From: Candidatus Limnocylindria bacterium
GTDB lineage: Bacteria > Chloroflexota > Limnocylindria > QHBO01
Direction: 5' to 3'
Assembly (NCBI GenBank): GCA_036261425.1
Contig: DATAKU010000084.1
Location: forward strand, 1-34,053
DNA: 34,053 bases
Below are positions 14,775 through 32,498 of the stretch, one piece after another (within the stretch, counting starts at the first letter, position 1; each line of letters starts with the position of its first letter). A program made the position numbers and the translations under genes. Under the pieces are notes generated by a model. That model was not told the origin of the DNA and made no database searches. It worked only from the letters and a program-made list of their open reading frames with translations.

Positions 14775-14803
14775 TTGACGCGGTGGGGGCCGGTCCATAT
14801 GAT
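14775..14803 (+). promoter_or_regulatory. Sigma-70-like promoter for the arsR-PI/PIM operon
   Basis: TTGACG (14775-14780), a 17-nt spacer, then TATGAT (14798-14803). It lies in an AT-rich island that stands out in this GC-rich sequence, ~27 nt upstream of the first candidate start. Confidence 0.5.
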
Positions 14804-19933: not shown

Positions 19934-21106
19934 GTGACGTCGCTCGCCCCCTCGCCGACGACGACCGCGACGCGGCCACCGCTCCGCATCGGCATCGTCA
20001 GCCCGTACGGCTACCCGCACCCTGGGGGCGTCAACGAGCACGTCCACCACACCTACCAGGCCATGCGGCGCATGGGGCACGACGCCTGGGTCATCACCAG
20101 CAAGTACGGCCGCGAGCGCGAGAGCGAGGGCCATGTCATCCGGCTCGGGACCGGCTGGGCCTTCCCGGCCAACGGCAGCGTCGGACGCGTCACCCTGGGC
20201 CTGCGCTTCAAGCGTCAGGCGCGCGAGGTGCTCCAGGCGCATCGGTTCGACATCCTCCACTTCCACGAGCCCTTCGTGCCGTTCCTGTCCCCGACCGTGC
20301 TGGAGGCGTCGGAGACGGTCAACATCGCCACGTTCCACGCCTTCGGCGGATTCAGCCCCAGCTACTGGATCGGCCGGCGCTTTGCCGGGCCGCTGGCTGA
20401 GCTGCTCCACGGCCGGATCGCGGTCTCCGGCGCGGCCCGGCACTTCATCAGCCGCTACTTCCCGGGCGACTACGAGATCATCCCGAATGGCGTGGACGCG
20501 GACCTCTACGCCGGTGCCGAACCCTACGAGGAGCTCCGGGACGGAACGCTGAACATCCTGTTCGTCGGACGCTTCGAGGAGCGCAAGGGACTGATCCACC
20601 TCCTCAAGGCCTATCACCGGCTCCGTAAGCGCAAGGTCGACGCTCGACTGCTGGTGGTGGGAGCCGGGCCGAAGGAGCGCGAGTACCGGCGCTTCGTCGG
20701 GCTGCGCGGCATCCGCGACGTCGAGTTCCTCGGACGCGTCAGCGACGAGGAGAAGCGCCGCTACTTCGCGTCGGCCGACATCTTCTGCGCCCCGAACACC
20801 GGCCAGGAGTCCTTCGGCATCGTCCTGCTGGAGGCCATGGCCGCCGGTGTCCCGATCGTGGCCAGCGACATCCACGGCTTCAAGAACGTCATCCAGCGCA
20901 ACGTCCAGGGGATCCTGGTCGAGCCGCGCAACCCGCGGGCCCTCGCGGCCGCGCTCTACGCGCTGGCGCGCGACCCCGACCTCCGCCACGAGATGGGCGA
21001 TGCGGGCCGAGCACGCGCTCCCGAGTACAGCTGGGAGCGCGTCACCGAGCGTGTCATCGACTACTACCACGAGGTCCGTGACCGGGTCCTGTCCGACCGA
21101 ACCTGA
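19934..21106 (+). CDS. pimA: GT4 glycosyltransferase, PimA-like phosphatidylinositol mannosyltransferase
   Basis: N-terminus LRIGIVSPYGYPHPGGVNEHV parallels mycobacterial PimA (RIGMVCPY..PGGVQSHV). GT4 C-terminal motif ESFGIVLLEAMAAGVPIVASD. Genomic context with the PI synthase and acyltransferases. Confidence 0.75.
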   Translation: MTSLAPSPTTTATRPPLRIGIVSPYGYPHPGGVNEHVHHTYQAMRRMGHDAWVITSKYGRERESEGHVIRLGTGWAFPANGSVGRVTLGLRFKRQAREVLQAHRFDILHFHEPFVPFLSPTVLEASETVNIATFHAFGGFSPSYWIGRRFAGPLAELLHGRIAVSGAARHFISRYFPGDYEIIPNGVDADLYAGAEPYEELRDGTLNILFVGRFEERKGLIHLLKAYHRLRKRKVDARLLVVGAGPKEREYRRFVGLRGIRDVEFLGRVSDEEKRRYFASADIFCAPNTGQESFGIVLLEAMAAGVPIVASDIHGFKNVIQRNVQGILVEPRNPRALAAALYALARDPDLRHEMGDAGRARAPEYSWERVTERVIDYYHEVRDRVLSDRT

Positions 21107-21116
21107 GCGAACCGAC

Positions 21117-21848
21117 TCAGGACTCGAGATGCCACAGGGCGCGGTAGTACCGGATGCGCTCGTCGTCCGGCTCGACCCCGTAGGCCCGGAAGAACTCGGC
21201 TTGGTGGCCCGGCCCGAAGTTCCAGTCGAGGCTCATCGAGGCGACCGCCAGATCGGCCCAGCGGTCTCCCACGGCCAGGTCGCCGAAGTCGACGTTGCCC
21301 GTCCATTGCCCCTCCGCCGAGATCAGCGTGTTCGGGGCGCACGCGTCACCGTGGACAAGCACCGGCTCCTTCACGGGCGGTCGCGGCCCGAGCCCTTCCG
21401 GGGATCGGCCGACCCACACCTCCGCAGTCCACTCCGCCGGGAAGGCCTCCACGGCGGTGGCGTGGAGGGCCCGGAGCCCCGCAGCGATCGCCCGGATCGC
21501 CTCCGCTCGCCGTGCGCGCCATGTGTCGCCCACCGCGCTTTCCCCGGGCAGCGCGGCCGTCATGAGCCACTGCGCCCCGCCGTCACGGCCATGGTCGATC
21601 AGACGTGGCGCCGGATGCCGATCGGAGAGCCACTCGAGGCGAACGCGCTCGCGCTCCAGGTCCACGCCGGTCGCCGCGGGATTCCACTTCACGAAGGCGT
21701 CGCCGATCCGGAAGGTCAGCCCTCCCAGCTCGTTGCGCCACGCAAGTTCGACGGGGCGACCAGCCGCGATCGCCAGCACGATGTCGGGAATCGGGTCGTC
21801 CCCGAGGGTATGGAAGGCTGCGAGCGAGGCGAGGTCCGGCTGCGTCAC
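21117..21848 (-). CDS. Aminoglycoside-phosphotransferase (APH(3')-like) family kinase
   Basis: Brenner motif VLVHGDACAPNTLI, activation segment NVDFGDLAVGDRWADLAVAS, and C-terminus FFRAYGVEPDDERIRYYRALW, all as in APH(3') enzymes. GTG 21848 overlaps the upstream stop. The upstream part of track ORF 21117-22442 is not protein-like. Confidence 0.75.
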   Translation of the reverse strand: MTQPDLASLAAFHTLGDDPIPDIVLAIAAGRPVELAWRNELGGLTFRIGDAFVKWNPAATGVDLERERVRLEWLSDRHPAPRLIDHGRDGGAQWLMTAALPGESAVGDTWRARRAEAIRAIAAGLRALHATAVEAFPAEWTAEVWVGRSPEGLGPRPPVKEPVLVHGDACAPNTLISAEGQWTGNVDFGDLAVGDRWADLAVASMSLDWNFGPGHQAEFFRAYGVEPDDERIRYYRALWHLES

Positions 21849-22840
21849 AGCGGCTTGCGGTACGCCATGAACGTCTGCTTGGCGGCGTAGCCGAGCGACT
21901 CGTACAGGCCGAGCGCCCCGGTGGGGTTCTGCGCGTCGACCCCCAGGCTGGCCGAGGTGAAGCCCGCCTCTCGCGCCGCCACCATCGAGTCGGCCAGGAG
22001 CGCCCGGGCCAATCCGCGCCGGCGCCACGGCCGACGCGTGGCGACCGACGCCACGTATACGCGCCGCCGGTGGTGGCGCTCGTTCTCCTCCTCCGGCACG
22101 ACCGTGACGATGACCGACGCGACCTGGTCGCCGTCCCAGGCCACGCGCCAGAAGCGCGGGTCGGCGTTCTGGGGGTCGCCGTCGAAGGTCCTCCACTCCT
22201 CCTCGGTGCCCGGGGTTGCGCCCCAGTGGTCCCGGAACGCCTCCTCCATGGCGTCCCAGATGGCGCGGTACTGGTCGCGCGTCACGGGCCGCACCTCGAG
22301 GCCATCGGCGATGGGCAGGGACGGGAGGTCGTCGAGCGACGGTGCCACCATCTCGAAGAAGTAGCGCACCACGCCGTACCCGTCGGCAGTGAGCATGGCG
22401 TGGTTGCCCGGATCGGCCTCCGCGCCCTCGGAGGAGAGCCACTTCGGCCCGACGCCCGCATGGCTCTCGGCGATCTGCCGGAGGCGGGCCTCGTTGCGGC
22501 GGTGCAACTCGCTGCCAATCCCTCGCCGCCGCCAGTCGGGATGCACGAAGCCGAAGTTCTCATACGCTCGCCCGCCCTCGACCAGCTCCGTCCAGAAGAC
22601 GCGCGAGTAGGCGACCAGCCTGCCGTCGACCTCGGCCAGCAGGATGTCGCGTTCGTGGTCGCAGTTGGTGTGGTTCGCGTAGGACAGGTCGAACTGCTCC
22701 AACGTGGTGACCTCGTCCGAGCCGTTCGCCACGGCCGCGGCCTGGTGCACCCGGTGCATCTCCGGGTGGTCCTCCGGGCCGCGGTAGTGACGGATCCGCA
22801 ATCCGGGGACGTCCGGGGCGCGCGCGTGCTGGTCGATCAC
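21845..22840 (-). CDS. Tandem-GNAT (MshD-like) acetyltransferase, copy 2
   Basis: Two GNAT motif-A segments (VHPDWRRRGIGSEL and ATRRPWRRRGLARALL). C-terminus LGVDAQNPTGALGLYESLGY. GTG 22840 overlaps the stop of copy 1. Confidence 0.75.
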   Translation of the reverse strand: MIDQHARAPDVPGLRIRHYRGPEDHPEMHRVHQAAAVANGSDEVTTLEQFDLSYANHTNCDHERDILLAEVDGRLVAYSRVFWTELVEGGRAYENFGFVHPDWRRRGIGSELHRRNEARLRQIAESHAGVGPKWLSSEGAEADPGNHAMLTADGYGVVRYFFEMVAPSLDDLPSLPIADGLEVRPVTRDQYRAIWDAMEEAFRDHWGATPGTEEEWRTFDGDPQNADPRFWRVAWDGDQVASVIVTVVPEEENERHHRRRVYVASVATRRPWRRRGLARALLADSMVAAREAGFTSASLGVDAQNPTGALGLYESLGYAAKQTFMAYRKPL

Positions 22841-23853
22841 GCCGCACCCCCGTCCAGCGGCCGGCGCCACGCGATGAAGCGCTCGGTGGGGGCGAAGCCG
22901 GCCGACTCGTACAGGCCGAACGCGCCATTGGGGTTGTCGGCGTCGACGCCCAGCACGGCGACCTCCATGCCCCGCTCGCGGAGCAGGTGCAGGGAGCGAA
23001 CGATGAGGCCGCGCGCCAGCCCGCGTCGCCTCCACGCCCGACGCGTGAAGACGCTGTCAAGCCAGCCGCGCCGAATGCCCAGCGCGGCGTTCTCCGCCGG
23101 GTAGATCGCGTTCAGCACTCCCCCGGCGATCTCGTCGCCGTCCCAGGCGACCAGCATCAGCTCCGGCTGAAACTCGGGAGAGTCGACCCAGCGCCGGAAG
23201 CTGGCCTCCGACTGGTCCCAACCGCCCCAGTGGTCGCGGAAGGCGTCGATGTCCGCCTCCCAGACCCGATGGGCCATCTCGCGCGTCACCGGACGGAGCT
23301 CCAGCCCGTCGGGAAGGGGCTCGATGGCGGGCAGGTCCCCGTCGATGCGGCGCTCCATATCGGCGAACCAGCGCACCGGCCGGTAGCCGGCGCGGCGGGC
23401 GAGTGCCTGCGCCCCCAGGTTCGTCTCCGCGGTGCCCATGCCGAGGACCATCGGTCGGTCGGTCTCGTGGCTCGCCGCCGTGGCACGCCTGCGGTCCTCG
23501 CTGCGCATCAGCAGCATGGTCCCGATGCCGCGCCGCCGGTAGGCGGGATCCACCCAGCATCGGGAGCGGTACTCGCGCACGCCATCGGTCGCGTCGATCC
23601 AGTCCAGCTGGCCGAAGGCAACCGGCCGTCCATCGACTTCGACCACGGTGACGTCGCGGGACGGGTCGAACTGCTCGGACGGGTGGCCCCACCAGGCGGC
23701 CATCTCCTCGACGGTCGAGCGGCCGCGAACGCCGTCCGCCTCCCACTCGGCGTTCTGGATCCGCACGAGCTCGGCGTAGTCGGCCGGTCCCGCGAAGGCG
23801 CGCAGGACCAGGCCGGAGGTGACGGCCGCCGGGGCGGCCGGTTCGGTCTTCAT
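22837..23853 (-). CDS. Tandem-GNAT (MshD-like) acetyltransferase, copy 1
   Basis: Two GNAT motif-A segments (VDPAYRRRGIGTML and FTRRAWRRRGLARGLI). Clear paralogue of the downstream gene (DGLELRPVTRE..DAFRDHWG, LGVDADNPNGAFGLYESAGF). ATG 23853 lies 5 nt after GGAGAG. An alternative start is at 23895. Confidence 0.75.
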   Translation of the reverse strand: MKTEPAAPAAVTSGLVLRAFAGPADYAELVRIQNAEWEADGVRGRSTVEEMAAWWGHPSEQFDPSRDVTVVEVDGRPVAFGQLDWIDATDGVREYRSRCWVDPAYRRRGIGTMLLMRSEDRRRATAASHETDRPMVLGMGTAETNLGAQALARRAGYRPVRWFADMERRIDGDLPAIEPLPDGLELRPVTREMAHRVWEADIDAFRDHWGGWDQSEASFRRWVDSPEFQPELMLVAWDGDEIAGGVLNAIYPAENAALGIRRGWLDSVFTRRAWRRRGLARGLIVRSLHLLRERGMEVAVLGVDADNPNGAFGLYESAGFAPTERFIAWRRPLDGGAA

Positions 23854-23884
23854 GTCATCTCTCCGTGAGTGGAGCGAGGCGGCA

Positions 23885-24685
23885 TCAGCCGACACGCTTG
23901 AGCTTCCCGGTGCGCTTCGCGTAGCGCTCGGCCAGGCCGAACACGTAGACGCCCAGCGGGATGAGGACCACGCCCATGAGGAGCAGCGGCCAGACGTTGT
24001 GCAGCAGCTCGCCCACCGACTGGTTGTGGATGAGCCCGCCGCGAATCCCGTCCAGCACGTAGGTGCCGGGGCTGAACTGCGAGACGAACTGCATCCACTC
24101 GGGCAGGACGTCGGTGCCGTAGTAGACGCCGCTGAAGAGCAGGATGATCGACTGGATGACGAAGACCATCTGGTCGCCGCGCTCCACGTACAGCAGCGGC
24201 AGGATCGCCGCCATCATCCCGACCCCGACGAAGCTGATCGACCCGAGCGCCAGGAACACGGCCGCGGTCACGAAGTTGCCGCCGTCGAACCGGACGTCGA
24301 AGAAGAGCAGCATCACCGCCAGGATGATCACCATCTGGATCACCGCGTAGGCCACGGCGAAGAAGGTGGAGCCGATCAGCTGGGTCCAGCGCCGCACCGG
24401 CGCCATGAACGTGTACTCCAGCGTTCCCTCCCAGCGCTCCCAGGTGACCGTCTCGCCGATGAAGCCGAAGACGATCGACAGGAAGTTCCAGAAGATGGTG
24501 CCGATGATCAGCGTCTGGAGCAGGATCGGGTCGCCCTGGGCCACGCCGATGAAGGCCACCGCCAGGGCGGCGGCCAGCGAGTAGATCAGCCAGGCGACCT
24601 CCCAGCCCCAGTACCGCTTGGTCAGGTTGAAGTTGCGCTCGACGAAGGCGAAGCTCGCCTTGAGCTCGCGCGTGGCAATGGTCAT
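23885..24685 (-). CDS. ABC-2-type exporter permease
   Basis: From ATG 24685: MTIATRELKASFAFVERNFNLTKRYWGWEVAWLIYSL..., 6 TM, typical DrrB/ABC-2 layout. Upstream codons of track ORF 23885-24886 are not protein-like. Confidence 0.75.
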   Translation of the reverse strand: MTIATRELKASFAFVERNFNLTKRYWGWEVAWLIYSLAAALAVAFIGVAQGDPILLQTLIIGTIFWNFLSIVFGFIGETVTWERWEGTLEYTFMAPVRRWTQLIGSTFFAVAYAVIQMVIILAVMLLFFDVRFDGGNFVTAAVFLALGSISFVGVGMMAAILPLLYVERGDQMVFVIQSIILLFSGVYYGTDVLPEWMQFVSQFSPGTYVLDGIRGGLIHNQSVGELLHNVWPLLLMGVVLIPLGVYVFGLAERYAKRTGKLKRVG

Positions 24686-24740
24686 CGGTGTCGGTTCCCG
24701 AGCGAATGGATGGATGGATGGCCGATGGACCGGCCGGACC

Positions 24741-24935
24741 CTATCGGGCCCGGACCGGCCGCATCGTGGGATCGTTCGCCAGCCAGGTGCCGGTTCGCAC
24801 CAGTTGTCGCCCGATCCAGCGTCGCAGCGGGCGCCGCTGATGACCGACTCCCACCAGGAGGGTCGTGCGGCGCAGCTCCGCCTCACGCTCCTTCGCCAGC
24901 TGGCGCAGGACGTGAACGTTCTGAACGCTCTGCAC
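24741..24935 (-). CDS. Small basic protein (64-66 aa) between the ABC ATPase and permease genes
   Basis: Strong SD AAAGGAGG (24951-24944) in an AT-richer patch. GTG 24935 has 8-nt spacing; ATG 24941 is only 2 nt from the SD. Product is VQSVQNVHVLRQLAKEREAELRRTTLLVGVGHQRRPLRRWIGRQLVRTGTWLA... Confidence 0.45.
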   Translation of the reverse strand: MQSVQNVHVLRQLAKEREAELRRTTLLVGVGHQRRPLRRWIGRQLVRTGTWLANDPTMRPVRAR

Positions 24936-25002
24936 GGTCATCACCTCCTTTCCTTTCGTTCCTTCATCTCTGCGACGAACGCGGGTCGTCGTGGTCGACG
25001 GC

Positions 25003-25917
25003 TCACGCCTCGTCTCCTTCCTCGGTCTCGAGATCGTCGTCGAGACTCCTGCCAGTGAATGTCATGAACACGTTCTCGAGCGTCGGCTCCTTGCCGTAGT
25101 CGCGGGCCACCAGGCTCTTCAGCTCGTCCGGCGTTCCCTCGGCCACCACGCGCCCGTCGTTGATGAGCGCGATCCGGTCACAGAGCCGCTCCGCCTCGGC
25201 CAGGTCGTGCGTGGTCAGCACGATCGTTGCGTCGTGCGTGTCACGCACCTCCTCGACGAAGGTCTGGACGTCGAGCTTCGAGCGCGGGTCCAGGCCGGTC
25301 GTCGGCTCGTCGAGCAGGAGGACCGTCGGGCTCGTCAGCAGGGCTCGCGCGATCGCGACCTTCTGCTGCATGCCCCGGCTCATCTGCTCGAGCGGCCGGT
25401 CCAGCCGCTTCTCGCCGATGCCCAGGCGAGCGAGGATGGCGATGACCTGCGTCCGGGCCTTCTTGGCGTCCATCCCGTAGAGCCGTGCCGCGTACGACAG
25501 GTTCTCGTGGGGTGACAGCTTCTTGAAGAACGCCGCGTCCACGCTCACCCGGTTGATGAGCCGCTTGACCGCCATCTCGTCGCGCGCGATGTCGTGGCCA
25601 AGGACCTCGACCCGCCCGGTGTCGAGGGTCAGCAGCGTGCTGACCAGCCGGATGAGCGTGCTCTTGCCTGAGCCGTTCGCGCCGAGGACGCCGTAGATCT
25701 CCCCGCGGCGGATCGACATGCTCACGTCCTCCACGGCGGTGACCGGCTTCTTGCTGCGACCGACCACGAACCGCTTGGTGGCATGCTCGATCAGCAGCGC
25801 CGGCTGCTCCCCGGCCGGCGGCGGACCGACCCGGCGAACGGGCGCAACGGCCGGAGCGGCCGGCATTGCCGCCGTGCGGGTCGCTGCCGTCTTCGGTTCC
25901 TTCGCTACCTGGACCAT
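25003..25917 (-). CDS. ABC transporter ATP-binding protein (DrrA/ABC-2 type)
   Basis: Intact Walker A GANGSGKST, Q-loop, signature MSRGMQQKV, Walker B VLLLDEPTTGLD and H-loop LTTHDL. Has a ~40-aa Ala/Pro-rich N-terminal extension. Confidence 0.9.
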   Translation of the reverse strand: MVQVAKEPKTAATRTAAMPAAPAVAPVRRVGPPPAGEQPALLIEHATKRFVVGRSKKPVTAVEDVSMSIRRGEIYGVLGANGSGKSTLIRLVSTLLTLDTGRVEVLGHDIARDEMAVKRLINRVSVDAAFFKKLSPHENLSYAARLYGMDAKKARTQVIAILARLGIGEKRLDRPLEQMSRGMQQKVAIARALLTSPTVLLLDEPTTGLDPRSKLDVQTFVEEVRDTHDATIVLTTHDLAEAERLCDRIALINDGRVVAEGTPDELKSLVARDYGKEPTLENVFMTFTGRSLDDDLETEEGDEA

Positions 25918-26007
25918 CGTTCCTGCATCCCGCTGCTTGCTCTAGGGACCGGACACCAGAAGAGCCGCGGTCCGGTGATATCGGTCCGCGGCCCTGTGCC
26001 CGTGGGC

Positions 26008-26040
26008 AAGAAAAAACCGTGGACCCGATCTGGCCCACGG
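26008..26040 (-). terminator. Rho-independent terminator inside the leader of the ABC/GNAT/APH operon
   Basis: Minus strand reads CCGUGGGCC-AGAUCG-GGUCCACGG, a 9-bp stem with one G-U pair and a 6-nt loop. It is followed directly by UUUUUUCUU. A run of six T is very unusual in this GC-rich window. Confidence 0.65.
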
Positions 26041-26077
26041 CTCGTGGTGTCTGCTGGGCGGCCTTGCCGCCCGGGCT

Positions 26078-26164
26078 TCACCTCGACCAGGGCACAGATC
26101 TCCCGTCGACTCCGCCGCCGATAGGCGCGAGCCGGTGCGCTGAGGCACGCATGAGGAGATTCAT
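26078..26164 (-). CDS. Candidate 28-aa leader peptide (MNLLMRASAHRLAPIGGGVDGRSVPWSR)
   Basis: ATG 26164 lies downstream of AAGGAG (26183-26178), but the spacing is a long 13 nt. An in-frame CTG at 26173 is 4 nt from the SD. The stop at 26078 is ~40 nt before the terminator stem. Weak call. Confidence 0.25.
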   Translation of the reverse strand: MNLLMRASAHRLAPIGGGVDGRSVPWSR

Positions 26165-26249
26165 TGCCGTCAGATCGCTCCTTGCTTTCAATGGGTTGTC
26201 GCCGGGCTCCACCCGCGCAGCCGAAACCGCCGTCGAGTGGTGCCGGCGG

Positions 26250-26279
26250 AGTCTACGCCCGACGTCCGACCGGTGTCAA
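26250..26279 (-). promoter_or_regulatory. Sigma-70-like promoter driving the leader / small RNA
   Basis: Minus strand reads TTGACA (26279-26274), an 18-nt spacer, then TAGACT (26255-26250). The predicted start near 26243 gives a ~235-nt transcript to the terminator, or a ~326-nt leader to ATG 25917. Confidence 0.5.
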
Positions 26280-26404
26280 CGAAACTACGTCGTTTGTCGC
26301 ATCGGTCCCGTGCCGGCCGGCGGTCGCGGAAGGGTCATTCGGCCCTGCGGCACCGACGACCGGATCGGTAAGGTGGTGCCACCCGAGCCTGGAGAATTCC
26401 GTAC

Positions 26405-27373
26405 ATGCAGGCGAATCGCGGCCTCGTCTTCTGGGGCGTCGCCCTCATCACCGCGGGCGCCGTCGCGCTCGCCATCCAGTCAGGCGTCATTTCGGGCGAG
26501 GTGGCCCGCGACGTCTGGCGCTTCTGGCCGATCGTGCTCGTCATCATCGGCCTGGCCATCATCGCGGCGCGTACCCCGTTCGCGCTGGTCGTCACCCTGC
26601 TGGCCGGCCTGGTGGTCGGCGGCCTGGGCGGCTCGCTCGTCGCGGGCTGGCCGGACGGCATCAGCATCGGCTGCGGCGGCGAGCCGACCGAGCGACTGGC
26701 CGACCAGGGCAGCTTCGCCGGTGGCGGCGCCGAGGTGGAGCTCGACTTCAACTGCGGTGAGCTGGCCGTGTCGACGGCGGCCGGGAGCGACTGGTCGCTC
26801 GATGCGCGCCACGGGTCAGGCGATGCGCCGGAGGTCCGTTCCTCCGATGACGCCCTCCGCGTCATCCACCATGGCGGCAGCGGTGCCTTCTTCAGCGCCG
26901 CCGAGGCCCGCGAGGAGTGGGACGTCACGCTGCCGGCCGATACCGAGCTGGACCTTGCCATCGACGCCAACGCGGCCTCCAGTGAGCTGGACCTGACGGA
27001 TGCGGCCTTCTCGGCCCTCGGGGTCGACGCGAACGCAGGCGAGGTCCACCTGGCGCTCGACGGCTCGTCGGTCGACGACTTCTCGATCAGCACCAATGCG
27101 GGGTCGGTCTCGATGACCGTCGACACCGAGACCGAGCTGTCCGGGTCGATCGGCATGAACGCCGGCTCCTTCGAGCTGTGCGTGCCCGATGGCGTCGCCA
27201 TCGAGATCACCGTGGAGGACGCGAACATCACGTTCAGCCACGACCTCGACGAGAGCGGCCTGTCGCAGTCCGGAGACACCTGGCGCAGCGAAGACGGCGC
27301 GGCCGACGTGCGGCTCAGCCTGGAGGGCAACGCCGCCAGCTTCAGCTACAACCCCGACGGAGGATGCTCATGA
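26405..27373 (+). CDS. LiaF-like / DUF4097 toastrack membrane protein
   Basis: N-terminal 3 TM (FWGVALITAGAVALAI, FWPIVLVIIGLAIIAA, LVVTLLAGLVVGGLGG). The C-terminal domain has repeated short strands of the toastrack type: IDANAASSELDL, VDANAGEVHLAL, ISTNAGSVSMTV, IGMNAGSFELCV. GGAGA lies 9 nt before the ATG. Confidence 0.7.
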   Translation: MQANRGLVFWGVALITAGAVALAIQSGVISGEVARDVWRFWPIVLVIIGLAIIAARTPFALVVTLLAGLVVGGLGGSLVAGWPDGISIGCGGEPTERLADQGSFAGGGAEVELDFNCGELAVSTAAGSDWSLDARHGSGDAPEVRSSDDALRVIHHGGSGAFFSAAEAREEWDVTLPADTELDLAIDANAASSELDLTDAAFSALGVDANAGEVHLALDGSSVDDFSISTNAGSVSMTVDTETELSGSIGMNAGSFELCVPDGVAIEITVEDANITFSHDLDESGLSQSGDTWRSEDGAADVRLSLEGNAASFSYNPDGGCS

Positions 27374-27861
27374 ACCGCCGCCTCTATCGCTCCCGCACCG
27401 ATCGCGTGCTGGGGGGCGTGGCCGCTGGCGTGGCCGACTACGTGAACGCCGATCCGGCGCTGGTCCGCATCGCATGGGCGATCCTCGTGCCGCTCACCAG
27501 CGGCCTGGCGCTGCTCGTCTACATCGTCGCCTGGATCGCGGTGCCGGAGGCCCCGGTCGACGCCCCGATGGTGCAGCCCCTCGTCGGCGACGCGACCGGC
27601 ACCGAGGGCCTCGACGCGGGCGCGGAGCGCGGGGCCGCGGAGCCCGGGTCGGCATGGACGCCGCCGGCGCCGGTGGAGCGCCGCGACGGCAACGCCGGCC
27701 TGATCATCGGCGCGGGCCTGGTCATCCTCGGGCTGTGGTTCCTGCTGCGCGAGTACCTGCCGGGCATCGACTGGGGTCTGATCTGGCCGCTGTTCATCGT
27801 GGGTGTCGGCGTGGTCATCCTCGTCAACGCGACGCGCAACCGCAGCGGGCCGGCGGCCTAG
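27370..27861 (+). CDS. PspC-domain membrane protein
   Basis: MNRRLYRSRTDRVLGGVAAGVADYVNADPALVRIAWAILVPLTSGLALLVYIVAWIAVPE is the PspC domain. C-terminal LiaI/LiaF-like double TM. The ATG overlaps the upstream stop (ATGA). Confidence 0.85.
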   Translation: MNRRLYRSRTDRVLGGVAAGVADYVNADPALVRIAWAILVPLTSGLALLVYIVAWIAVPEAPVDAPMVQPLVGDATGTEGLDAGAERGAAEPGSAWTPPAPVERRDGNAGLIIGAGLVILGLWFLLREYLPGIDWGLIWPLFIVGVGVVILVNATRNRSGPAA

Positions 27862-30800
27862 CCGCCCTCGGGCATCGGATCCGGGGCGGGCGGCGCGGCG
27901 GCCGCCTGTCGTCGCTCCCACCAGTCGCGTCCGGCGAGCGCGAAGAGCATCGCCCCGGCCGCCACGGCCGCCCCGGCGGCGAGCTTGAGCCCGCTCAGGG
28001 TGAGCAGCTCGGCGCGCTCGCCCTGCGGCGGATCGGGGAACTGGAAGCCGAAGTTCCAGGGCGGTAGCGCGCGCGCGGCGTTGACGTACCAGTCCGGCAT
28101 GGCCAGCGCCGAGTTCAGCGGGAAGATCAGGATGCCGGCCACCACCACCAGCGCGAGGTAGCCGATGGCGATGTCGCGCCACGCCGGCCGGCGCAGGAGC
28201 TCGTCGACGACGTAGGCCACGGCAACCATGGCGAAGATGACCGCCGTGAGGTAGTGGTACGCGAACGTCGCGCGTTCGATGCGGATCCACGGCACGTACT
28301 GGAAGGCGAAGGCCGCGACCAGGAGCACGAGCGCCGGCGAGCGGCGCTTCCAGGCCAGCACGCCGATGGTGACCACGGCCGGGATGCCGGCCCAGAACAG
28401 GAGCGGGTTGCCGCCGTTGTAGATGACCGCGATCTGGTCGGCGTCGTACGCGGTGCCGCCGAAGAACCAGGTCGGCTTGAGGGCCAGCGGCCAGCTCCAC
28501 CACGGCGAGGCGCTGTCGTGGCCCGCGGTCAGGTTGAAGTGGTAGCCGAACATCTGGGCGTGGAGCTCGTCGAGCGACCATCCGTACCCCGGACCGCCGC
28601 CGACCGCCCACTCGTGGCCCAGCTGCAGGTAGGGCAGGTAGCTCAGGCCGTAGACGACGAGCGGCACGACGAGCAGGCTGGCGCCGACCCAGGCCCACGC
28701 GAAGCCGCCCATCTCGCCGGGCCGGAACCAGCGCGCATCGGATGACGGGTCGCGGACCGACGCCCAGGCGCGCCAGGCCAGCAGGATGGCCGCCACGCCG
28801 ACCATCAGCCACGCCGGCCAGCCGGCCTGGACGCCCCGAGCCAGGAGGCCGAACAGGTACTCGACCGCGCTGCCCGGGGTCCGACCCTCGACGCTGCCGA
28901 AGCCGAGGACGAAGGCCAGCGTCACGCCACTCACCACGACGGCCGTGGCCGACAGCGCCACCAGCGCCTCGCGCCAGGGCATGCGGATCGGCCGCGCCCA
29001 GGCGATGACCAGGGCCAGGGCCAGGACGCCGAGCATCGTGACCAGGAACGGCCACGGCGCGCCGATGCCGCCCACGACGGCGGACAGTGCCGCCAGGCCG
29101 ACCAGGACCAGGCGCCCGAGCGACGAGCGCGCCAGCACCAGCACCAGCAGCCCGAAGAGCGCGTAGAAGCCGACCCACTTGGTGGCGGCCGCCAGGCCGA
29201 TGAGGACGCCGACGAGCGGCAGCACCCACCACGCGCTCCGGCTCCAACGCCCCGACCAGACCTGCCAGAAGAGCAGGTAGGCGGCCACGATGAAGACCGC
29301 GACGAAGATGTCGTTCATCGCGATCCGGCTCATCACGTAGCTCATGCCGTCGACCGCCACGAAGGCCGCCGCCAGCAGGGCGATGCCCCGGCGGCTGAAC
29401 ATCGTGGCCGCCAGCAGGTAGACGAGGCCGACGAGGATGGCCCCGAAGACCACGCCCGCCAGCCGCCAGGCGAAGGCGGTGCTGCCGGCATCGATGTGGA
29501 CGAGCGTGCCGTCAGCGGTCGCAACGAGGAGCCGGCCGTGGTCGTCCGCCTGGCCCGTGGTGGCGATGTCGAAGGCCATGGCCACCGGCGTGCCGGGCAG
29601 GTCCGTGGCGTCGAAGGTGGCCATGCCGATCGTCCCGTCGCCGCGGCGCTCGACGTGCGGCTCCACCACCCAGACCTGCGCGTCGCCCTCCGGCGTCGTG
29701 CCGGCGACGTAGACGAGGTTCGCGAGCCGCTGGTCGGCGATGAGCGTCGGCGCTCCGGGAAGCGGCACCAGCCCGACCAGACGCTCCTCGTCGGCGTCCA
29801 CGGCCGCGATCCCACCCCGTGTGGCGGGATGCTCCTCGGTGGCCGGCAGCGGGCCGGTGAGGGCCAGGAGCTGCTGATCGTCGCCGCCGCCCCGGACCAG
29901 GATCGGTCCGACCAGCGCCGCCCCGATCTCGAGCGTGCCGTCCTCGAGAGGCTGGAGCGTGGCAGCGTCGAGGAAGGCGATGCTGCCCCGCTCGACGTCG
30001 CTGACCGCGACGCGGTCCGGGTCGTCCTCGGCCCCGCGCACCAGGCCGATGCCCCCGTAGGTGCCGGATGCGCGCGCGGTCACCTCGTCGCTGGCCGGGT
30101 CCACGGTGGCGACGCCGTCCGGGCCGCGGAGCAGGATGGGCGAGCCGCTGGAAGTGAGAACCACGACCTGGTTGACGGCAGCCAGGTCCACCTCGATCGG
30201 CGGCCCGGACGGCGGGGCGCGGCCGTCGGGCGAGGCCAGCAGGCCGGCCAGCTCGTACGTCTCCACGGTCCCGGCGTCGGCGCGGCCGACGAGGAGCCGC
30301 GGCGCCTCCGGATCGTAGGCCAGGGCCGCGACCGGTCCGCCCGCCTGCCAGCGGGCGAGCTCATCGCCGGACTCCGCGTCGGTGGCGACGACCGTCGAGG
30401 TGCCGGACAGCGTGAAGGCGACGGACCGGTCGCGCCCGAACGCCGCGCGGGCCGGCGCGACGGCGAGCGTCGGCGAGGGCTCGTCCAGCTCATCGCTGTC
30501 GATGACCCGGTTCGGATCGGCGAGGACGATGCCGCCGGCGATCAGGTACTTCGCCAGCATCGGGTGGGTCCACTCGTAGACGTCGCGGTCCCAGCCGTGC
30601 TGCCAGTTGGCCAGCCACTCGGCCGCCGAACGGGCGTGGTAGACCTCGTCGAAGTGGTGGCCGCGCGGCACGTCGAGCCGCCACAGGCGGAAGACCAGGG
30701 CGAACAGGACCAGGGCCAGGAGGAGCCACGCGTCGCGTCGGTCGAGGCGCCGTCCCGGCTCGCGCAGGTACGCGTCCGCCGGGTTCGGGGCGAGCCACCG

Positions 30801-32498
30801 CGGCCCGCGCCCGTCGCCTGAGGCGGCCGGGTCGACCCGGGTGGCGCCCCAGTCGGCCGGAGCCGGGGCGCGCGGGGCGATGGGGGCCGGTGCCCCGACG
30901 ACTGGTTCCGGCTCGCTGGCCGAAGGCGGGGTCGGCACGGGCTCCGACGCGTGGCTGGCCGCCAGGCGCAGGGCGTGCCAGACGACCGCGCCGAGGAGCA
31001 CCACGCTGAGGAACGAGAGCGCCCAGATCCCCGCGTCGGTCAACAGGGTGGCGCTCAGCAGGCCGTCCTGCTCCATCGGCGCGCCGCCCAGTCCCGGGTT
31101 CATGACGCGCGGGCCGGCGAAGGACCAGTCCTCGGTGTAGACCCAGTACACGTTGGCGAAGAAGCTCAGCGACAGTCCGCCGTAGATCCACGGCCACGAG
31201 CGACCGGCGAACAGGAGCGGCGCCGCCAGTGCCAGGGCCGGGAAGAGGTAGCGCTCGTGCACGCGGGTGGGGAGCACGAAGAAGGCGACCGCCAGCAGGA
31301 GCGCGGCGAGCAGCACCCCGCGCACGTCGTCGCGCCGCGCGACGACCACCAGGGCGATGATCGCGGCCGCGGCGAAGAGCACGGTGCCGACGTGCTGCCA
31401 CGTCAGGCCGATGCCGCCGAGGGTGATGGCCGCGACCGTGTCGTCGCCCCAGTGCAGCGTGTCGCCCAGTCCGCTCCACGGGTTGCGCCACAGGTTGAAC
31501 GCGTTGATGCTCAGGCCGGTGTACGTGCCGGCTGCCTCGGCCAGCTTGCCGATCAGGCTCGTCGTCGGGTCCGCCTCGGGGAACAGGCCCAGCAGGCCCC
31601 GCGGGTCGCCCCCCGCCCGCGGCGCGTAGATCGTCATGCCGAACGGCAGCATCATCGCCACGAGCGGCACCACGCCGGCGGCCAGCGAGGTCAGGACGCG
31701 CAGGAGGTCCGGCCGATCGCGGTGCAGCGGGTCCGCGGATCGAGCGAACAGGTGGCGCTTCAGCCCGACGATCGCCACGATCGGGATCAGGAACGCGAAC
31801 TGGAACTTCACCAGCAGCGCGAGCACCGCGCCGAACGCCGCCGCCTCGGTCCACCCGCGCGCGAGGGCGTAGATCGTCGCCAGCAGCACCAGCGTGCCGA
31901 CCGAGTCGATCTGGCCCCATACCGCCGAGTCGAAGATGACGCCGGGATTGAACAGGTAGGCCGTGGCGGCCACCAGGCCCAGCGCCTGCGGCGCCACGCC
32001 GAGGCGCGCGCGGTCCGCCAGCTGGCTTCCCCATCGGCGACAGGTGGCGAACAGCAGCCAGGCCACACCGATGTCGGCCAGGATGCCCGGGATCTTCACC
32101 AGCCCGCCGGTGGCGTCCTGCCCGACCAGCGGCGTCAGCGCCCCGCCGATCCCGCCGAGCAGCCAGAGCACGTAGAGGTACCCCGGCGGGTAATCGCTGA
32201 AGTAGCCCTCTTCGTAGAATGCGGCTGGCCCGACGCTTGCTAGGCGCTGGCCCCAGGCGGTGAAGTCGCCGATGTCGATGGCGAATCCGCTGAGCGGCAT
32301 GTAGACGCCGGCGATCAGGACGCGCAGGACCAGGCCGAGGACGAGGACCGTGGTGAGGATGGTGCCGGCGTCGAGCCGCCTGATCGTGTCCACAATCCCC
32401 ACGCCCCGTCGGCCGACGGGGTCGCGGGTCATCAGGTGCGGCGCCCCCGTGGAGCGCGCCGTGTCGTGTCGCACGCCAAGGTGGCGGTGAGTATACAT
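27858..32498 (-). CDS. 1546-aa fusion of two GT-C glycosyltransferase modules (DYPP-type module + PMT/GT39-like module carrying a ~345-aa beta-rich insertion)
   Basis: ATG 32498 lies 4 nt after GGAGG. Upstream codons of track ORF 27858-34016 are antisense to a real plus-strand gene. Module 1 (aa ~40-515) is multi-TM with YFSDYPPGYLYVLW and RVHERYLFP. A Pro/Ala linker spans aa 516-585. Module 2 has HHFDEVYHARSAAEW, YEWTHPMLAKYLI, FAWRLAGVVFG and a C-terminal ATFAYHYLTAV. Confidence 0.75.
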   Translation of the reverse strand: MYTHRHLGVRHDTARSTGAPHLMTRDPVGRRGVGIVDTIRRLDAGTILTTVLVLGLVLRVLIAGVYMPLSGFAIDIGDFTAWGQRLASVGPAAFYEEGYFSDYPPGYLYVLWLLGGIGGALTPLVGQDATGGLVKIPGILADIGVAWLLFATCRRWGSQLADRARLGVAPQALGLVAATAYLFNPGVIFDSAVWGQIDSVGTLVLLATIYALARGWTEAAAFGAVLALLVKFQFAFLIPIVAIVGLKRHLFARSADPLHRDRPDLLRVLTSLAAGVVPLVAMMLPFGMTIYAPRAGGDPRGLLGLFPEADPTTSLIGKLAEAAGTYTGLSINAFNLWRNPWSGLGDTLHWGDDTVAAITLGGIGLTWQHVGTVLFAAAAIIALVVVARRDDVRGVLLAALLLAVAFFVLPTRVHERYLFPALALAAPLLFAGRSWPWIYGGLSLSFFANVYWVYTEDWSFAGPRVMNPGLGGAPMEQDGLLSATLLTDAGIWALSFLSVVLLGAVVWHALRLAASHASEPVPTPPSASEPEPVVGAPAPIAPRAPAPADWGATRVDPAASGDGRGPRWLAPNPADAYLREPGRRLDRRDAWLLLALVLFALVFRLWRLDVPRGHHFDEVYHARSAAEWLANWQHGWDRDVYEWTHPMLAKYLIAGGIVLADPNRVIDSDELDEPSPTLAVAPARAAFGRDRSVAFTLSGTSTVVATDAESGDELARWQAGGPVAALAYDPEAPRLLVGRADAGTVETYELAGLLASPDGRAPPSGPPIEVDLAAVNQVVVLTSSGSPILLRGPDGVATVDPASDEVTARASGTYGGIGLVRGAEDDPDRVAVSDVERGSIAFLDAATLQPLEDGTLEIGAALVGPILVRGGGDDQQLLALTGPLPATEEHPATRGGIAAVDADEERLVGLVPLPGAPTLIADQRLANLVYVAGTTPEGDAQVWVVEPHVERRGDGTIGMATFDATDLPGTPVAMAFDIATTGQADDHGRLLVATADGTLVHIDAGSTAFAWRLAGVVFGAILVGLVYLLAATMFSRRGIALLAAAFVAVDGMSYVMSRIAMNDIFVAVFIVAAYLLFWQVWSGRWSRSAWWVLPLVGVLIGLAAATKWVGFYALFGLLVLVLARSSLGRLVLVGLAALSAVVGGIGAPWPFLVTMLGVLALALVIAWARPIRMPWREALVALSATAVVVSGVTLAFVLGFGSVEGRTPGSAVEYLFGLLARGVQAGWPAWLMVGVAAILLAWRAWASVRDPSSDARWFRPGEMGGFAWAWVGASLLVVPLVVYGLSYLPYLQLGHEWAVGGGPGYGWSLDELHAQMFGYHFNLTAGHDSASPWWSWPLALKPTWFFGGTAYDADQIAVIYNGGNPLLFWAGIPAVVTIGVLAWKRRSPALVLLVAAFAFQYVPWIRIERATFAYHYLTAVIFAMVAVAYVVDELLRRPAWRDIAIGYLALVVVAGILIFPLNSALAMPDWYVNAARALPPWNFGFQFPDPPQGERAELLTLSGLKLAAGAAVAAGAMLFALAGRDWWERRQAAAAPPAPDPMPEGG

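What the first reader, a model, noticed from the sequence alone, without database searches (positions are those of the whole stretch)
25918..26279. About 330-nt leader with its own promoter, an SD-preceded mini-ORF and a canonical intrinsic terminator upstream of the exporter/GNAT/APH operon (attenuator, riboswitch or small RNA)
Seen on the minus strand:
- Promoter TTGACA-18-TAGACT at 26279-26250.
- About 235 nt downstream, a 9-bp stem CCGUGGGCC/GGUCCACGG with a 6-nt loop, followed by UUUUUUCUU (26040-26008). This is the only clean hairpin-plus-U-tract I found in the window.
- Between them, AAGGAG (26183-26178) and a 28-codon ORF (26164-26078). The GGAG of that SD can pair with CUCC in codons 3-4 of the ORF.
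- A GGGCGGC/GCCGCCC hairpin directly after the mini-ORF stop.
- The 5' arm of the terminator can alternatively pair with CCACG immediately upstream, or with GCCCACGG just after the U-tract.
- A second strong near-palindrome, GCCGCGGUCCG-N7-CGGUCCGCGGC (25964-25992), lies between the terminator and the ATPase start at 25917.

Established knowledge: a terminator inside a 5' leader is the hallmark of riboswitch or ribosome-mediated attenuation. Antibiotic-induced leader-peptide attenuation controls several resistance genes (erm, cat, bmrCD-type exporters).

Inference: expression of the exporter, acetyltransferases and kinase is conditionally released from premature termination. I could not match the RNA to a riboswitch class I know.
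Basis: partly seen in the sequence, partly recalled or inferred. Interest (0 to 1): 0.65.

Follow-up and report, generated by a model that had tools for sequence, protein, structure and literature searches.

The report
Leader-peptide attenuator before ABC exporter operon
A short translated leader, with a transcription terminator and a competing antiterminator, precedes a drug-exporter-like ABC transporter operon in every relative examined of an uncultured soil Chloroflexota lineage, so the operon is probably switched on when translation of the leader falters.

Summary
The window resembles a Candidatus Limnocylindria (Chloroflexota) genome. The leader lies directly upstream of a DrrAB-like ABC-2 ATPase/permease pair in all 80 related genome loci. 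It also precedes that gene in 60 of 60 genuine metagenome hits found by searching with the leader alone.

- **The mini-ORF is real but its peptide is not selected.** SD, start, length (26-34 codons) and stop position are conserved, and five of six gap blocks inside it are 3 nt long. Variation has no codon periodicity, and one clade reads the near-invariant 15-nt box GGGAGAUCYGYGCCC in another frame.
- **The box is an antiterminator strand.** It pairs with the top of the terminator's 5' arm plus its loop. Five of 10 pairs show compensatory changes (0 of 500 shuffles match).
- **The two folds are nearly isoenergetic.** The antiterminator is the predicted fold of the nascent RNA in 75 of 76 variants.
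- **No Rfam family matches.**

Best reading: a ribosome-dependent transcription attenuator of the bmrB/trp kind. A ribosome finishing the uORF covers the box and termination follows. Slowed or absent translation gives read-through. The natural signal is unknown. This is a new member of a known kind.

The parts
26250..26279 (-). Sigma-70-like promoter: TTGACA (26279-26274), 18-nt spacer, TAGACT (26255-26250). Predicted transcription start near 26243.
   Evidence: It is the only promoter-like hit in 20-34 kb. The hexamers are conserved with a variable spacer in most of 61 related loci. A strict promoter pattern is found upstream of the uORF in 70 of 79 loci and between T1 and the ABC gene in 0 of 79. 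The start site is inferred, not mapped.
26200..26248 (-). 5'-terminal stem-loop domain of the leader (CGCCGG...CCGGCG closing stem).
   Evidence: Predicted in the minimum-free-energy fold. Between clades the inner arms change together by eye (GGCACC/GGUGCC versus GGCGGC/GCCGCC). It is shorter or absent in distant clades. Not formally tested.
26178..26183 (-). Shine-Dalgarno sequence AAGGAG of the uORF, 13 nt before the AUG.
   Evidence: An SD-like motif 12-13 nt upstream of the start is kept in all clades, even where the surrounding sequence differs.
26078..26164 (-). Leader uORF of 28 codons plus TGA. It is translated, but its peptide sequence is not under selection.
   Evidence: An ORF of 26-34 codons with a start and a conserved stop position is found in 75 of 80 box-containing sequences. 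Inside the ORF, five distinct gap blocks are 3 nt long and one is 1 nt; outside it gaps take all lengths. Column entropy by codon position is 1.05/1.05/0.91, so there is no periodicity. Nine loci read the box in the +1 frame. Rare codons make up 20% of the uORF against 5.8% in the ABC gene.
26090..26104 (-). Near-invariant box GGGAGAUCUGUGCCC. Its 3' part is the core of the antiterminator 5' strand.
   Evidence: The box matches exactly, once per locus and at the same place, in 69 of 80 genome loci. It occurs once in the window. It is read in two different frames in different clades, so it is an RNA-level element.
26079..26100 (-). Antiterminator 5' strand, made of the last 7-8 codons of the uORF including part of the stop codon: GAUCUG.GCCC UGG UCG . 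GGUG.
   Evidence: The constrained fold of 26110-26008 gives -50.8 kcal/mol for the antiterminator conformer and -51.1 for the T1 conformer. The antiterminator is the minimum-free-energy fold before the T1 3' arm exists. The core helix was tested for covariation.
26027..26049 (-). Antiterminator 3' strand: CACC . CGA . CCG . GGGC CAGAUC. This covers the spacer, the whole T1 5' arm and most of the T1 loop.
   Evidence: On 26 distinct sequence types from 80 loci, 91.2% of cells are paired. Five of 10 pairs have changes on both sides (13 cells). 0 of 500 shuffles reach this, and slid controls give 14-52%. It shares bases 26040-26032 with T1, so the two folds exclude each other.
26056..26072 (-). 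Hairpin H (GGGCGGC-AAG-GCCGCCC), lying inside the antiterminator loop.
   Evidence: RNAalifold predicts it, with compensatory changes at two pairs. In distant clades the same position holds hairpins of different sequence, by eye (GACGC/GCGUC, GGCGC/GCGCC, GGGGC/GCCCC).
26008..26043 (-). Intrinsic terminator T1: stem 26040-26032 / 26025-26017, loop AGAUCG, U-tract 26016-26011 followed by CUU.
   Evidence: It is the only terminator-like site in 20-34 kb. All 40 sequence variants fold to -17 to -29 kcal/mol and are followed by a U run. The arms change together between clades (CCGUGGGCC/GGUCCACGG versus GCCGGAGGGCC/GGGCCCCCCGGC).
25964..25992 (-). Second conserved hairpin T2 (GCCGCGGACCG-N7-CGGACCGCGGC). 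Its tail is only moderately U-rich. It may be a back-up terminator.
   Evidence: A strict pattern finds it in 46 of 80 loci, about 24 nt after the T1 U run. The tail has a mean of 4.3 U in 10 nt. Its arms resemble the T1 arms. Function not tested.
25003..25917 (-). First regulated gene: an ABC-2-type (DrrA-like) ATPase. It is followed by a conserved small ORF, a DrrB-like permease, two double-GNAT genes and an APH(3')-like gene.
   Evidence: Assignments come from Pfam and NCBIfam, where all hits fall below the curated cut-offs. No promoter lies between T1 and this gene in 0 of 79 loci.

Best explanation
The 25918-26279 region is a ribosome-dependent (leader-peptide type) transcription attenuator. 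It controls a DrrAB-like ABC-2 exporter operon.

How it is built. A strong promoter makes a leader RNA. This RNA carries a 28-codon uORF, an intrinsic terminator T1 about 38 nt after the uORF stop, and a second hairpin T2. The last 7-8 codons of the uORF contain the near-invariant box GGGAGAUCUGUGCCC. These codons form the 5' strand of a long antiterminator helix. That helix pairs with the whole 5' arm and loop of T1.

How it most likely works.
- If a ribosome translates the uORF to its end, it sits on this strand while RNA polymerase makes T1. Very rare codons (AGA-UCU) lie there and would lengthen the dwell. T1 then folds and transcription stops, leaving a leader RNA of about 235 nt.
- If the uORF is not translated, or the ribosome is held up before about codon 18, the box is free. 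The antiterminator forms first and polymerase reads through into the ABC operon.

Shown by analysis: conservation, the translated-ORF signature, mutually exclusive folds with covariation, and linkage to the ABC gene.

Inferred: the polarity (translation gives termination), the timing, and that the natural trigger is translation stress such as ribosome-targeting antibiotics or starvation.
For: Conservation and linkage
- The leader is present upstream of the ABC gene in all 80 genome loci (79 loci by the box regex, L058).
- A search with the leader alone gave 63 metagenome loci with room downstream. Sixty have the ABC gene 177-285 nt downstream. The other three are chance matches inside coding sequence.
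- No promoter-like site lies between T1 and the ABC gene in 0 of 79 loci.

uORF
- SD, start, length and stop position are conserved.
- Five of six distinct gap blocks inside it are 3 nt long.
- There is no codon periodicity, and the box is read in two frames. What is selected is therefore the act of translation and the RNA sequence, not the peptide.

Antiterminator
- Covariation: 5 of 10 pairs with double changes, 13 cells, 0 of 500 shuffles, 91% paired against 14-52% when slid.
- Independent compensations occur in L032, L034, L038, L042/L069 and L070/L073.
- The antiterminator and terminator conformers differ by a mean of 1.6 kcal/mol.
- The antiterminator core is in the minimum-free-energy fold of the nascent RNA in 75 of 76 variants.
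- In full nascent leaders its probability has a median of 0.98 and exceeds 0.5 in 62 of 76.

Terminator and codons
- All 40 T1 variants are stable hairpins followed by a U run.
- Rare codons are enriched in the uORF. AGA and UCU (relative usage 0.01) sit in tandem on the box.

Expression
- Soil metatranscriptome contigs cover the leader core.
- In run X25 the only contigs longer than about 30 nt at 97% identity or more in 12 kb are in the leader.
Against: - There is no direct mapping of the 5' end or 3' end, and no measurement of read-through. The RNA evidence consists of low-depth assembled contigs, some from libraries with ambiguous labels.
- Equilibrium folding with simulated ribosome footprints did not give a consistent switch across relatives. 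The window itself, L004 and L067 switch strongly, L078 and L014 partly, and most others do not.
- An anti-antiterminator (start-codon region pairing with the box) is the best upstream partner in many loci, but it is no better than shuffled sequence.
- In 14 of 76 leaders the box is predicted to pair upstream instead, so the polarity may differ.
- In the experimentally studied bmrB system, abolishing leader translation lowered expression (PMC4191407).
- The near-invariance of the box across a whole class is more than a helix alone requires.
Confidence: 0.75

Rival explanations
1. The same terminator/antiterminator switch is set by a small-molecule ligand (a new riboswitch) or by an RNA-binding protein that recognises the invariant box and/or the T1 loop. 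Under this reading the uORF is auxiliary.
For: - The box and the T1 top/loop are near-invariant across the class, more than base pairing needs.
- Both carry an AGAUC motif.
- The leader has further conserved hairpins.
- The whole leader folds only modestly better than shuffles (z = -2.0).
Against: - No Rfam family matches, even at a permissive threshold.
- Outside the switch strands, the SD and the start, the leader sequence is variable. Indels inside the uORF are in threes. This fits a coding frame rather than an aptamer.
- The antiterminator 5' strand coincides with the uORF 3' end and stop codon in both reading-frame clades.
- No candidate binding protein is conserved next to it: the upstream neighbours vary.
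Confidence: 0.1
2. The region is an independent gene for a highly expressed small RNA or small protein that simply ends at T1. The ABC operon is transcribed separately, and the adjacency is only conserved gene order.
For: - It has its own strong promoter and its own strong terminator.
- Leader RNA is detected in metatranscriptomes without detectable flanking mRNA.
- Terminated leaders can act in trans in other bacteria (for example rnTrpL/peTrpL, PMC7298713).
Against: - No promoter-like site lies between T1 and the ABC start in 0 of 79 loci.
- The leader is never found away from the ABC gene: 60 of 60 genuine leader-anchored hits have it downstream.
- A conserved, covarying antiterminator that is isoenergetic with T1 has no purpose at the end of a stand-alone gene.
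- The peptide is not under amino-acid selection.
Confidence: 0.07
3. The uORF encodes a specific arrest peptide (GRS[V/A]P, reminiscent of the RAGP/RAPP motifs) or an amino-acid-sensing leader. Stalling at that motif or at particular codons would then be the signal.
For: In 66 of 75 loci the box is read as G-R-S-V/A-P, three codons before the stop. AGA and UCU are extremely rare codons.
Against: - Nine loci with the same box read it in the +1 frame (as ...GDPCPS* in the largest subclade), with the stop closer to the box.
- The wobble positions of the box are invariant, which is an RNA-level constraint.
- No codon runs for any amino acid are present.
- A ribosome arrested on the box would cover the antiterminator strand, so such a stall would favour termination rather than induction.
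Confidence: 0.04
4. The mini-ORF is the precursor of an exported or modified peptide (RiPP-like). It would be followed by a leaky terminator and by its exporter, acetyltransferase and kinase genes.
For: The gene order (small ORF, hairpin terminator, ABC exporter, GNATs, kinase-like APH) resembles some peptide gene clusters.
Against: - There is no third-position excess of variation.
- The C-terminal part is read in two frames.
- The APH gene is present in only 3 of 70 relatives.
- The locus is a core, class-wide feature rather than a sporadic cluster.
Confidence: 0.02

Closest known systems
bmrB-bmrCD ribosome-mediated transcriptional attenuation of Bacillus subtilis (PMC4191407)
   Same: - A promoter drives a short leader ORF, then an intrinsic terminator with a competing antiterminator, then ABC exporter genes that lack their own promoter.
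- Rare codons are enriched in the leader ORF.
- The ribosome acts as the sensor of translation efficiency.
   Different: - bmrB has 53 codons and its terminator lies inside the coding region. Here the uORF has 28 codons and T1 lies about 38 nt after the stop.
- BmrCD is a heterodimeric multidrug ABC exporter. Here the target is a DrrAB-like ABC-2 ATPase with a separate permease.
- No sequence similarity between the leaders was sought or noticed.
- Loss of bmrB translation lowered expression, whereas folding here predicts read-through without translation.
- A second hairpin T2 follows T1 here.
- The host is Chloroflexota rather than Bacillota.
Classical leader-peptide attenuators of amino-acid operons (trp, his, phe, ilv). 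This comparison rests on established knowledge; see also PMC10272879 for a Corynebacterium ilvB uORF.
   Same: A translated leader ORF overlaps one strand of an antiterminator that competes with an intrinsic terminator. The position of the lead ribosome decides which fold forms.
   Different: - There are no runs of regulatory codons.
- The regulated genes are an exporter operon, not a biosynthetic operon.
- No convincing anti-antiterminator (1:2 pairing) was found, so absence of translation is predicted to give read-through rather than super-attenuation.
Antibiotic-responsive leaders of resistance genes with short uORFs (vmlR PMC9226507, msrD, mef/mel PMC4335068). The tet(M) leader of Tn916 is recalled from memory only.
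   Same: A short uORF plus a terminator/antiterminator stands in front of a resistance-type gene. Induction is expected when ribosomes stall.
   Different: - Those uORFs are usually much shorter or carry drug-specific arrest motifs. Here the peptide is not conserved.
- Their targets are ABC-F or MFS proteins.
- No experimental inducer is known for the present element.
Rfam families (4227 models, release 15)
   Same: Only the terminator part gives weak similarity, to terminator-containing sRNA models (Xoo2 E = 0.21, BcKCsr2 E = 2.7).
   Different: No match reaches any gathering score in the whole window. The element is not a described RNA family.

Membership tests
Ribosome-dependent (leader-peptide) transcription attenuator | A short ORF with a ribosome-binding site and start codon in the 5' leader, conserved as an ORF. 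| tested here: met
   SD plus ATG/GTG, 26-34 codons and a conserved stop position are found in 75 of 80 box-containing sequences. Five of six distinct gap blocks inside it are 3 nt long.
Ribosome-dependent (leader-peptide) transcription attenuator | An intrinsic terminator between the leader ORF and the regulated gene. | tested here: met
   T1 at 26040-26008. All 40 variants are stable hairpins with a U run.
Ribosome-dependent (leader-peptide) transcription attenuator | An antiterminator that excludes the terminator and has one strand lying where the translating ribosome sits. | tested here: met
   The box:T1-5' arm helix has 5 of 10 covarying pairs, with 0 of 500 shuffles reaching this. The strand 26100-26079 is the uORF 3' end. 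The antiterminator is in the nascent minimum-free-energy fold in 75 of 76 variants, and the two conformers differ by a mean of 1.6 kcal/mol.
Ribosome-dependent (leader-peptide) transcription attenuator | The regulated genes depend on read-through, with no promoter of their own. | tested here: met
   0 of 79 loci have a TTGAC[AG]-N16-19-TAnnnT site between T1 and the ABC gene, against 70 of 79 upstream of the uORF. This is a pattern test only.
Ribosome-dependent (leader-peptide) transcription attenuator | Read-through changes when leader translation is changed, and a terminated short transcript exists in vivo. | tested here: inconclusive
   Metatranscriptome contigs cover the leader core but not the less conserved flanks. 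No 3'-end mapping or genetics is possible with these tools.
Amino-acid-sensing attenuator (trp/his type) | Tandem or clustered codons for the regulatory amino acid in the leader ORF. | tested here: not met
   The peptide alignment shows no conserved codon runs, and the N-terminal two-thirds is variable.
Nascent-peptide arrest leader (SecM/TnaC/Erm type) | A conserved arrest peptide motif read in a fixed frame. | tested here: not met
   The box is read as GRS[VA]P in 66 loci and in the +1 frame (GDPCPS* in the largest subclade) in 9 loci. There is no codon periodicity.
Riboswitch or other described RNA family (Rfam 15) | A match to a curated covariance model at its gathering score. | tested here: not met
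   There are 0 matches in the window at gathering thresholds. Only terminator-driven hits with E >= 0.2 appear at the permissive threshold.
bmrB-bmrCD system | Homology of the leader and of the regulated transporter (a type I heterodimeric ABC exporter), with the terminator inside the leader ORF. | tested here: not met
   The transporter here is ABC-2/DrrAB-like (Pfam PF01061; TIGR01188/TIGR01247). T1 lies after the uORF stop. The resemblance is in mechanism, not in membership.
RiPP or exported-peptide precursor gene | Purifying selection on the peptide, seen as an excess of third-position variation. | tested here: not met
   Entropy by codon position is 1.05/1.05/0.91. Two reading frames are used over the conserved box.

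The most novel reading that the evidence does not exclude
The element may be more than a standard attenuator. It could be a class-wide translation-surveillance switch whose default without ribosomes is ON.

It could also have a two-stage relay. When the box captures the T1 5' arm, the freed T1 3' arm would pair with the look-alike 5' arm of T2 and disarm this back-up terminator too. Polymerases that merely leak through a folded T1 would still be stopped at T2.

The abundant terminated leader RNA of about 235 nt, or the invariant box, might in addition act in trans or contact a factor.
Probability: 0.2. Interest if true: 0.65.

Novelty: new member of a known kind. Interest (0 to 1): 0.5.

Why it matters
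Limnocylindria are abundant soil and freshwater Chloroflexota that are known essentially only from metagenomes. Nothing is known experimentally about their gene regulation.

This leader is a clear, covariation-supported cis-regulatory RNA that is universal in the lineage. It is absent from Rfam, and three searches of the held literature returned no description of it.

It links the state of translation to expression of a core DrrAB-like exporter, which is often followed by MshD-like acetyltransferases. It therefore gives a testable handle on how these organisms respond to ribosome-targeting antibiotics or to starvation in soil.

It is also a compact example in which one 15-nt box serves as coding sequence in two different frames and as an antiterminator strand.

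The mechanism class itself, leader-peptide attenuation, is long known. The finding extends that class and does not overturn it.

Tried and rejected
- **Rfam.** Gathering and permissive thresholds gave nothing beyond terminator-driven noise.
- **RNAalifold on MAFFT alignments.** On the whole leader it recovered only a 3-bp hairpin within the box (GGG/CCC), hairpin H and T1. On the T1 variants it failed because two stem registers were misaligned. I replaced these with anchored blocks and per-sequence folds.
- **Equilibrium probability of T1 with simulated ribosome footprints.** The first run timed out. The second showed strong switching in the window, L004 and L067 and weaker effects in L078 and L014, but not in most others. 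I judged it uninformative for a kinetic switch and replaced it with nascent-RNA folds.
- **Anti-antiterminator.** The start-codon region is the best upstream partner of the box in many of 75 loci, but its energy is no better than shuffles (mean z about 0). I kept it only as a weak possibility.
- **GRSVP arrest-peptide idea and RiPP-precursor idea.** Both were rejected on the two reading frames and the lack of codon periodicity.
Present in the window, but by eye not kept in distant clades.
Present in the window; it is also compatible with a small local hairpin just after the U tract. Conservation not assessed.
- **Automated scan for T2.** It was noisy and was replaced by a strict pattern.
- **Metatranscriptome depth over the ABC gene at 85% identity.** It is confounded by other ABC genes, with peaks at the conserved ATPase motifs. 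I did not use it as a read-through measure.
- **The 5' stem domain.** Formal testing on alignment A1 was abandoned because the MAFFT columns are ambiguous.
Full report
**1. The observation**

- Promoter: TTGACA (26279-26274), an 18-nt spacer, TAGACT (26255-26250).
- SD: AAGGAG (26183-26178).
- ORF: 28 codons from ATG 26164 to TGA 26080-26078.
- Hairpin H: GGGCGGC-AAG-GCCGCCC (26072-26056).
- Terminator T1: 9-bp stem with a 6-nt loop (26040-26017), followed by UUUUUUCUU.
- A second near-palindrome at 25992-25964.

A consensus scan of 20000-34053 finds one promoter-like and one terminator-like site, and they are these two. The first 20 kb hold only a poor 6-bp candidate. Within a single window these counts are not above shuffled expectation. 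The case for reality rests on the comparative evidence below.

**2. Context and organism**

The region is a 487-nt divergent intergenic spacer.
- On the plus strand lie a LiaF-like/toastrack membrane protein (26405-27373) and a PspC-domain protein.
- On the minus strand lie an ABC ATPase (25917-25003), an ABC-2 permease, two proteins with tandem GNAT domains and an APH-family kinase (Pfam).
- NCBIfam places these nearest DrrA/DrrB, MshD and APH(3'), all below the curated cut-offs.

The ATPase has thousands of relatives at more than 80% identity. Those that carry a source name are annotated as Candidatus Limnocylindria bacterium, a class of Chloroflexota. DNA metagenomes from soil hold the window at about 30-fold depth.

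**3. The leader is conserved and tied to the ABC gene**

- A scan of one genome per species returned 80 loci encoding the ATPase.
- BLASTN of the spacer found the leader just upstream of the gene in 66 of them. Its core (window 26127-26004) is 70-90% identical.
- The other 14 carry more divergent versions of the same element. The box regex recovers the box and T1 in 79 loci plus the window; it misses only L058, whose leader is seen.
- The -35 and -10 hexamers are kept while the spacer varies, as expected of a real promoter.
- The reverse test searched metagenome contigs with a box...T1 pattern only and gave 76 loci. Of the 63 with at least 350 nt downstream, 60 have the ATPase gene starting 177-285 nt after the match. 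The 3 exceptions are chance matches inside coding sequence and have no U run.
- A strict sigma-70-like pattern occurs upstream of the uORF in 70 of 79 loci and between T1 and the ABC gene in none.
- Downstream synteny:

| Feature | Loci with it / loci with room |
|---|---|
| Permease follows the ATPase | 101 / 101 |
| A GNAT gene follows the permease | 65 / 79 |
| Two GNAT genes | 45 / 70 |
| APH gene | 3 / 70 |
| LiaF-like gene divergent upstream | 29 / 96 |

The conserved regulated unit is therefore the ABC-2 transporter, usually with GNATs.

**4. The mini-ORF is translated, but the peptide is not what is conserved**

- An SD-like motif, a start codon 12-13 nt downstream, an open frame of 26-34 codons and a stop at a conserved place are found in 75 of 80 box-containing sequences. 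This holds across clades whose uORF sequences otherwise differ.
- In the 45-sequence alignment, five distinct gap blocks between the ATG and the box are 3 nt long and one is 1 nt. The 5' leader and the part after the box have gaps of all lengths.
- Column entropy is the same at the three codon positions (1.05, 1.05, 0.91).
- The 15-nt box GGGAGAUCYGYGCCC is exact in 69 of 80 genome loci. It is read as G-R-S-V/A-P in 66 loci. In a clade of 9 it is read in the +1 frame (...GDPCPS* in the largest subclade), with the stop only 4 nt after the box.

The box is therefore an RNA-level element. What is selected in the uORF is that a ribosome travels through it and stops just behind it. This rules out an arrest-peptide motif and a peptide-precursor gene.

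**5. The box is an antiterminator strand**

- The 3' part of the box (5'-GAUCUG(U)GCCC, 26100-26090) is complementary to 5'-GGGCCAGAUC (26036-27). That sequence is the top of the T1 5' arm plus its loop.
- I cut two anchored blocks from each of the 80 sequences: 13 nt ending at the box, and 12 nt starting at the GGG of T1. This gave 26 distinct types.
- Counting the 10 proposed pairs on these types gave 91.2% paired cells. Five pairs have changes on both sides (13 cells). None of 500 shuffles reached any of these values, and sliding the partner gave 14-52% pairing.
- The compensations arise in separate lineages:

| Lineage | Box strand | T1 strand |
|---|---|---|
| L032 | GAUGUG | CACA |
| L034 | GACGUG | CACG |
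| L042/L069 | GGACCG | CGGUC |
| L070/L073 | GAGGUG | CACC |
| L038 | GUCC | GGAC |

- The only variable base inside the box (Y) is the predicted bulge.
- In the window the helix continues through UGG:CCG, UCG:CGA and GGUG:CACC. The whole T1 5' arm is sequestered, and the 5' strand (26100-26079) is exactly the last 7-8 codons of the uORF, including part of the stop codon.
- For 26110-26008 the antiterminator conformer has -50.8 kcal/mol and the terminator conformer -51.1.
- Over 76 distinct leaders the difference averages 1.6 kcal/mol. The antiterminator core is in the minimum-free-energy fold of the RNA that exists before the T1 3' arm is made in 75 of 76.
- In full nascent leaders, from the predicted start, its probability has a median of 0.98 and exceeds 0.5 in 62 of 76.
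- All 40 T1 variants remain stable hairpins with a U run.

**6. Mechanism proposed**

Shown: a translated uORF, a terminator, and a covarying, isoenergetic antiterminator whose 5' strand lies under a ribosome that is finishing the uORF.

Inferred:
- A ribosome that reaches the last codons or the stop covers roughly 26098-26068. This blocks the antiterminator while polymerase transcribes T1, so transcription ends near 26010.
- If the uORF is untranslated, or the ribosome is delayed before about codon 18, the antiterminator forms first and polymerase continues into the ABC operon.
- The uORF is rich in rare codons (20% against 5.8% in 28-codon windows of the ABC gene). In the main frame the two rarest codons, AGA and UCU, lie in tandem on the box. 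This would lengthen ribosome dwell on the antiterminator strand.
- Nothing in the sequence points to a specific amino acid or drug. The most economical reading is a sensor of general translation efficiency, as shown for bmrB-bmrCD of B. subtilis (PMC4191407).

The polarity is uncertain.
- A start-region:box pairing is the most frequent best upstream partner, but it is no better than chance.
- 14 of 76 leaders are predicted to pair the box upstream.
- In bmrB, loss of translation lowered expression.

**7. Expression**

- Contigs from several soil and rhizosphere RNA libraries cover the leader core (about 26004-26222) at depth 5-48. The less conserved flanks 25740-25991 and 26244-26411 have essentially none.
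- At 97% identity or more, run X25 has error-free contigs over 26027-26177 and no other contig longer than about 30 nt in the 12 kb around it.
- This fits an abundant short leader RNA. However, these are low-depth assemblies, some library labels are ambiguous, and no ends can be mapped.

**8. Other parts**

- A 5'-terminal stem domain (26248-26200) and hairpins inside the uORF are predicted and appear to covary by eye. They were not tested formally.
- Hairpin H sits in the antiterminator loop and is replaced by hairpins of other sequence in distant clades.
- T2 (25992-25964) is found about 24 nt after the U run in 46 of 80 loci, with a moderately U-rich tail. Its arms look like copies of the T1 arms, so the T1 3' arm could pair with the T2 5' arm. 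This suggests a relay that I did not test.

**9. Comparison with known systems**

The element works like ribosome-mediated attenuators (trp type, bmrB-bmrCD, antibiotic-responsive uORF leaders). It meets the sequence-level defining features of that class. It is not a member of any of those particular families.
- The transporter is ABC-2/DrrAB-like, not BmrCD-like.
- The terminator follows the uORF and is not inside it.
- There are no regulatory codon runs and no fixed arrest peptide.
- No Rfam model matches.
- Three searches of the held literature returned no description of such a leader in Limnocylindria or Chloroflexota.

**10. Verdict**

The element is a new, class-wide member of a known kind of regulator. 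It is of moderate interest, mainly as a first regulatory RNA for an uncultured dominant soil lineage and as a clean example of a box that serves both as coding sequence in two frames and as a switch strand. The natural signal, the polarity and the role of T2 need experiments.

Noticed in passing
window 24741-24941 (-): A conserved small ORF of about 66 aa (MTVQSVQNVHVLRQLAKEREAELRR...) with a strong SD lies between the ABC ATPase and the permease. BLASTN of the 325-nt spacer hits 39 related loci at the same place. No function was sought.
   Followed up: partly
window 21117-21893 (-): The APH(3')-like kinase gene at the end of the operon (NCBIfam NF033068, 145 bits, below the cut-off of 205) is present in only 3 of 70 related loci. 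It looks like a recent addition and not part of the conserved regulated unit.
   Followed up: partly
window 25964-25992 (-) and 26017-26040 (-): The T2 arms resemble the T1 arms in each clade (main clade GAGCCGUGGGCC versus GAGCCGCGGACC). The T1 3' arm could therefore pair with the T2 5' arm, which would be a possible relay between two terminators.
   Followed up: no
window 26162-26183 (-): The spacing between the SD and the start of the uORF is 12-13 nt in all clades. By eye this is longer than the roughly 3-8 nt seen before the ABC genes.
   Followed up: no
window 26405-27861 (+): A LiaF-like/toastrack membrane protein and a PspC-domain protein (cell-envelope stress types) lie divergent from the leader. 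This neighbourhood is kept in only 29 of 96 (LiaF-like) and 37 of 96 (PspC) related loci.
   Followed up: partly
window 27858-34016 (-): A very long ORF (up to 2052 aa as listed). Its C-terminal two-thirds looks like a hydrophobic, membrane-protein-like sequence. Not analysed.
   Followed up: no
window 14775-14803 (+): This is the only other sigma-70-like promoter match in the window: TTGACG-17-TATGAT.
   Followed up: no
loci L008, L020, L043, L048, L053, L061, L065, L066: These contigs carry the Limnocylindria-type leader and ABC gene, with an ATPase 71-84% identical to the window's. They sit in MAGs labelled Steroidobacteraceae, Binatia, Zixiibacteriota, Sulfotelmatobacter, Anaerolineaceae or Dormiibacterota. 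They are probably mis-binned.
   Followed up: no
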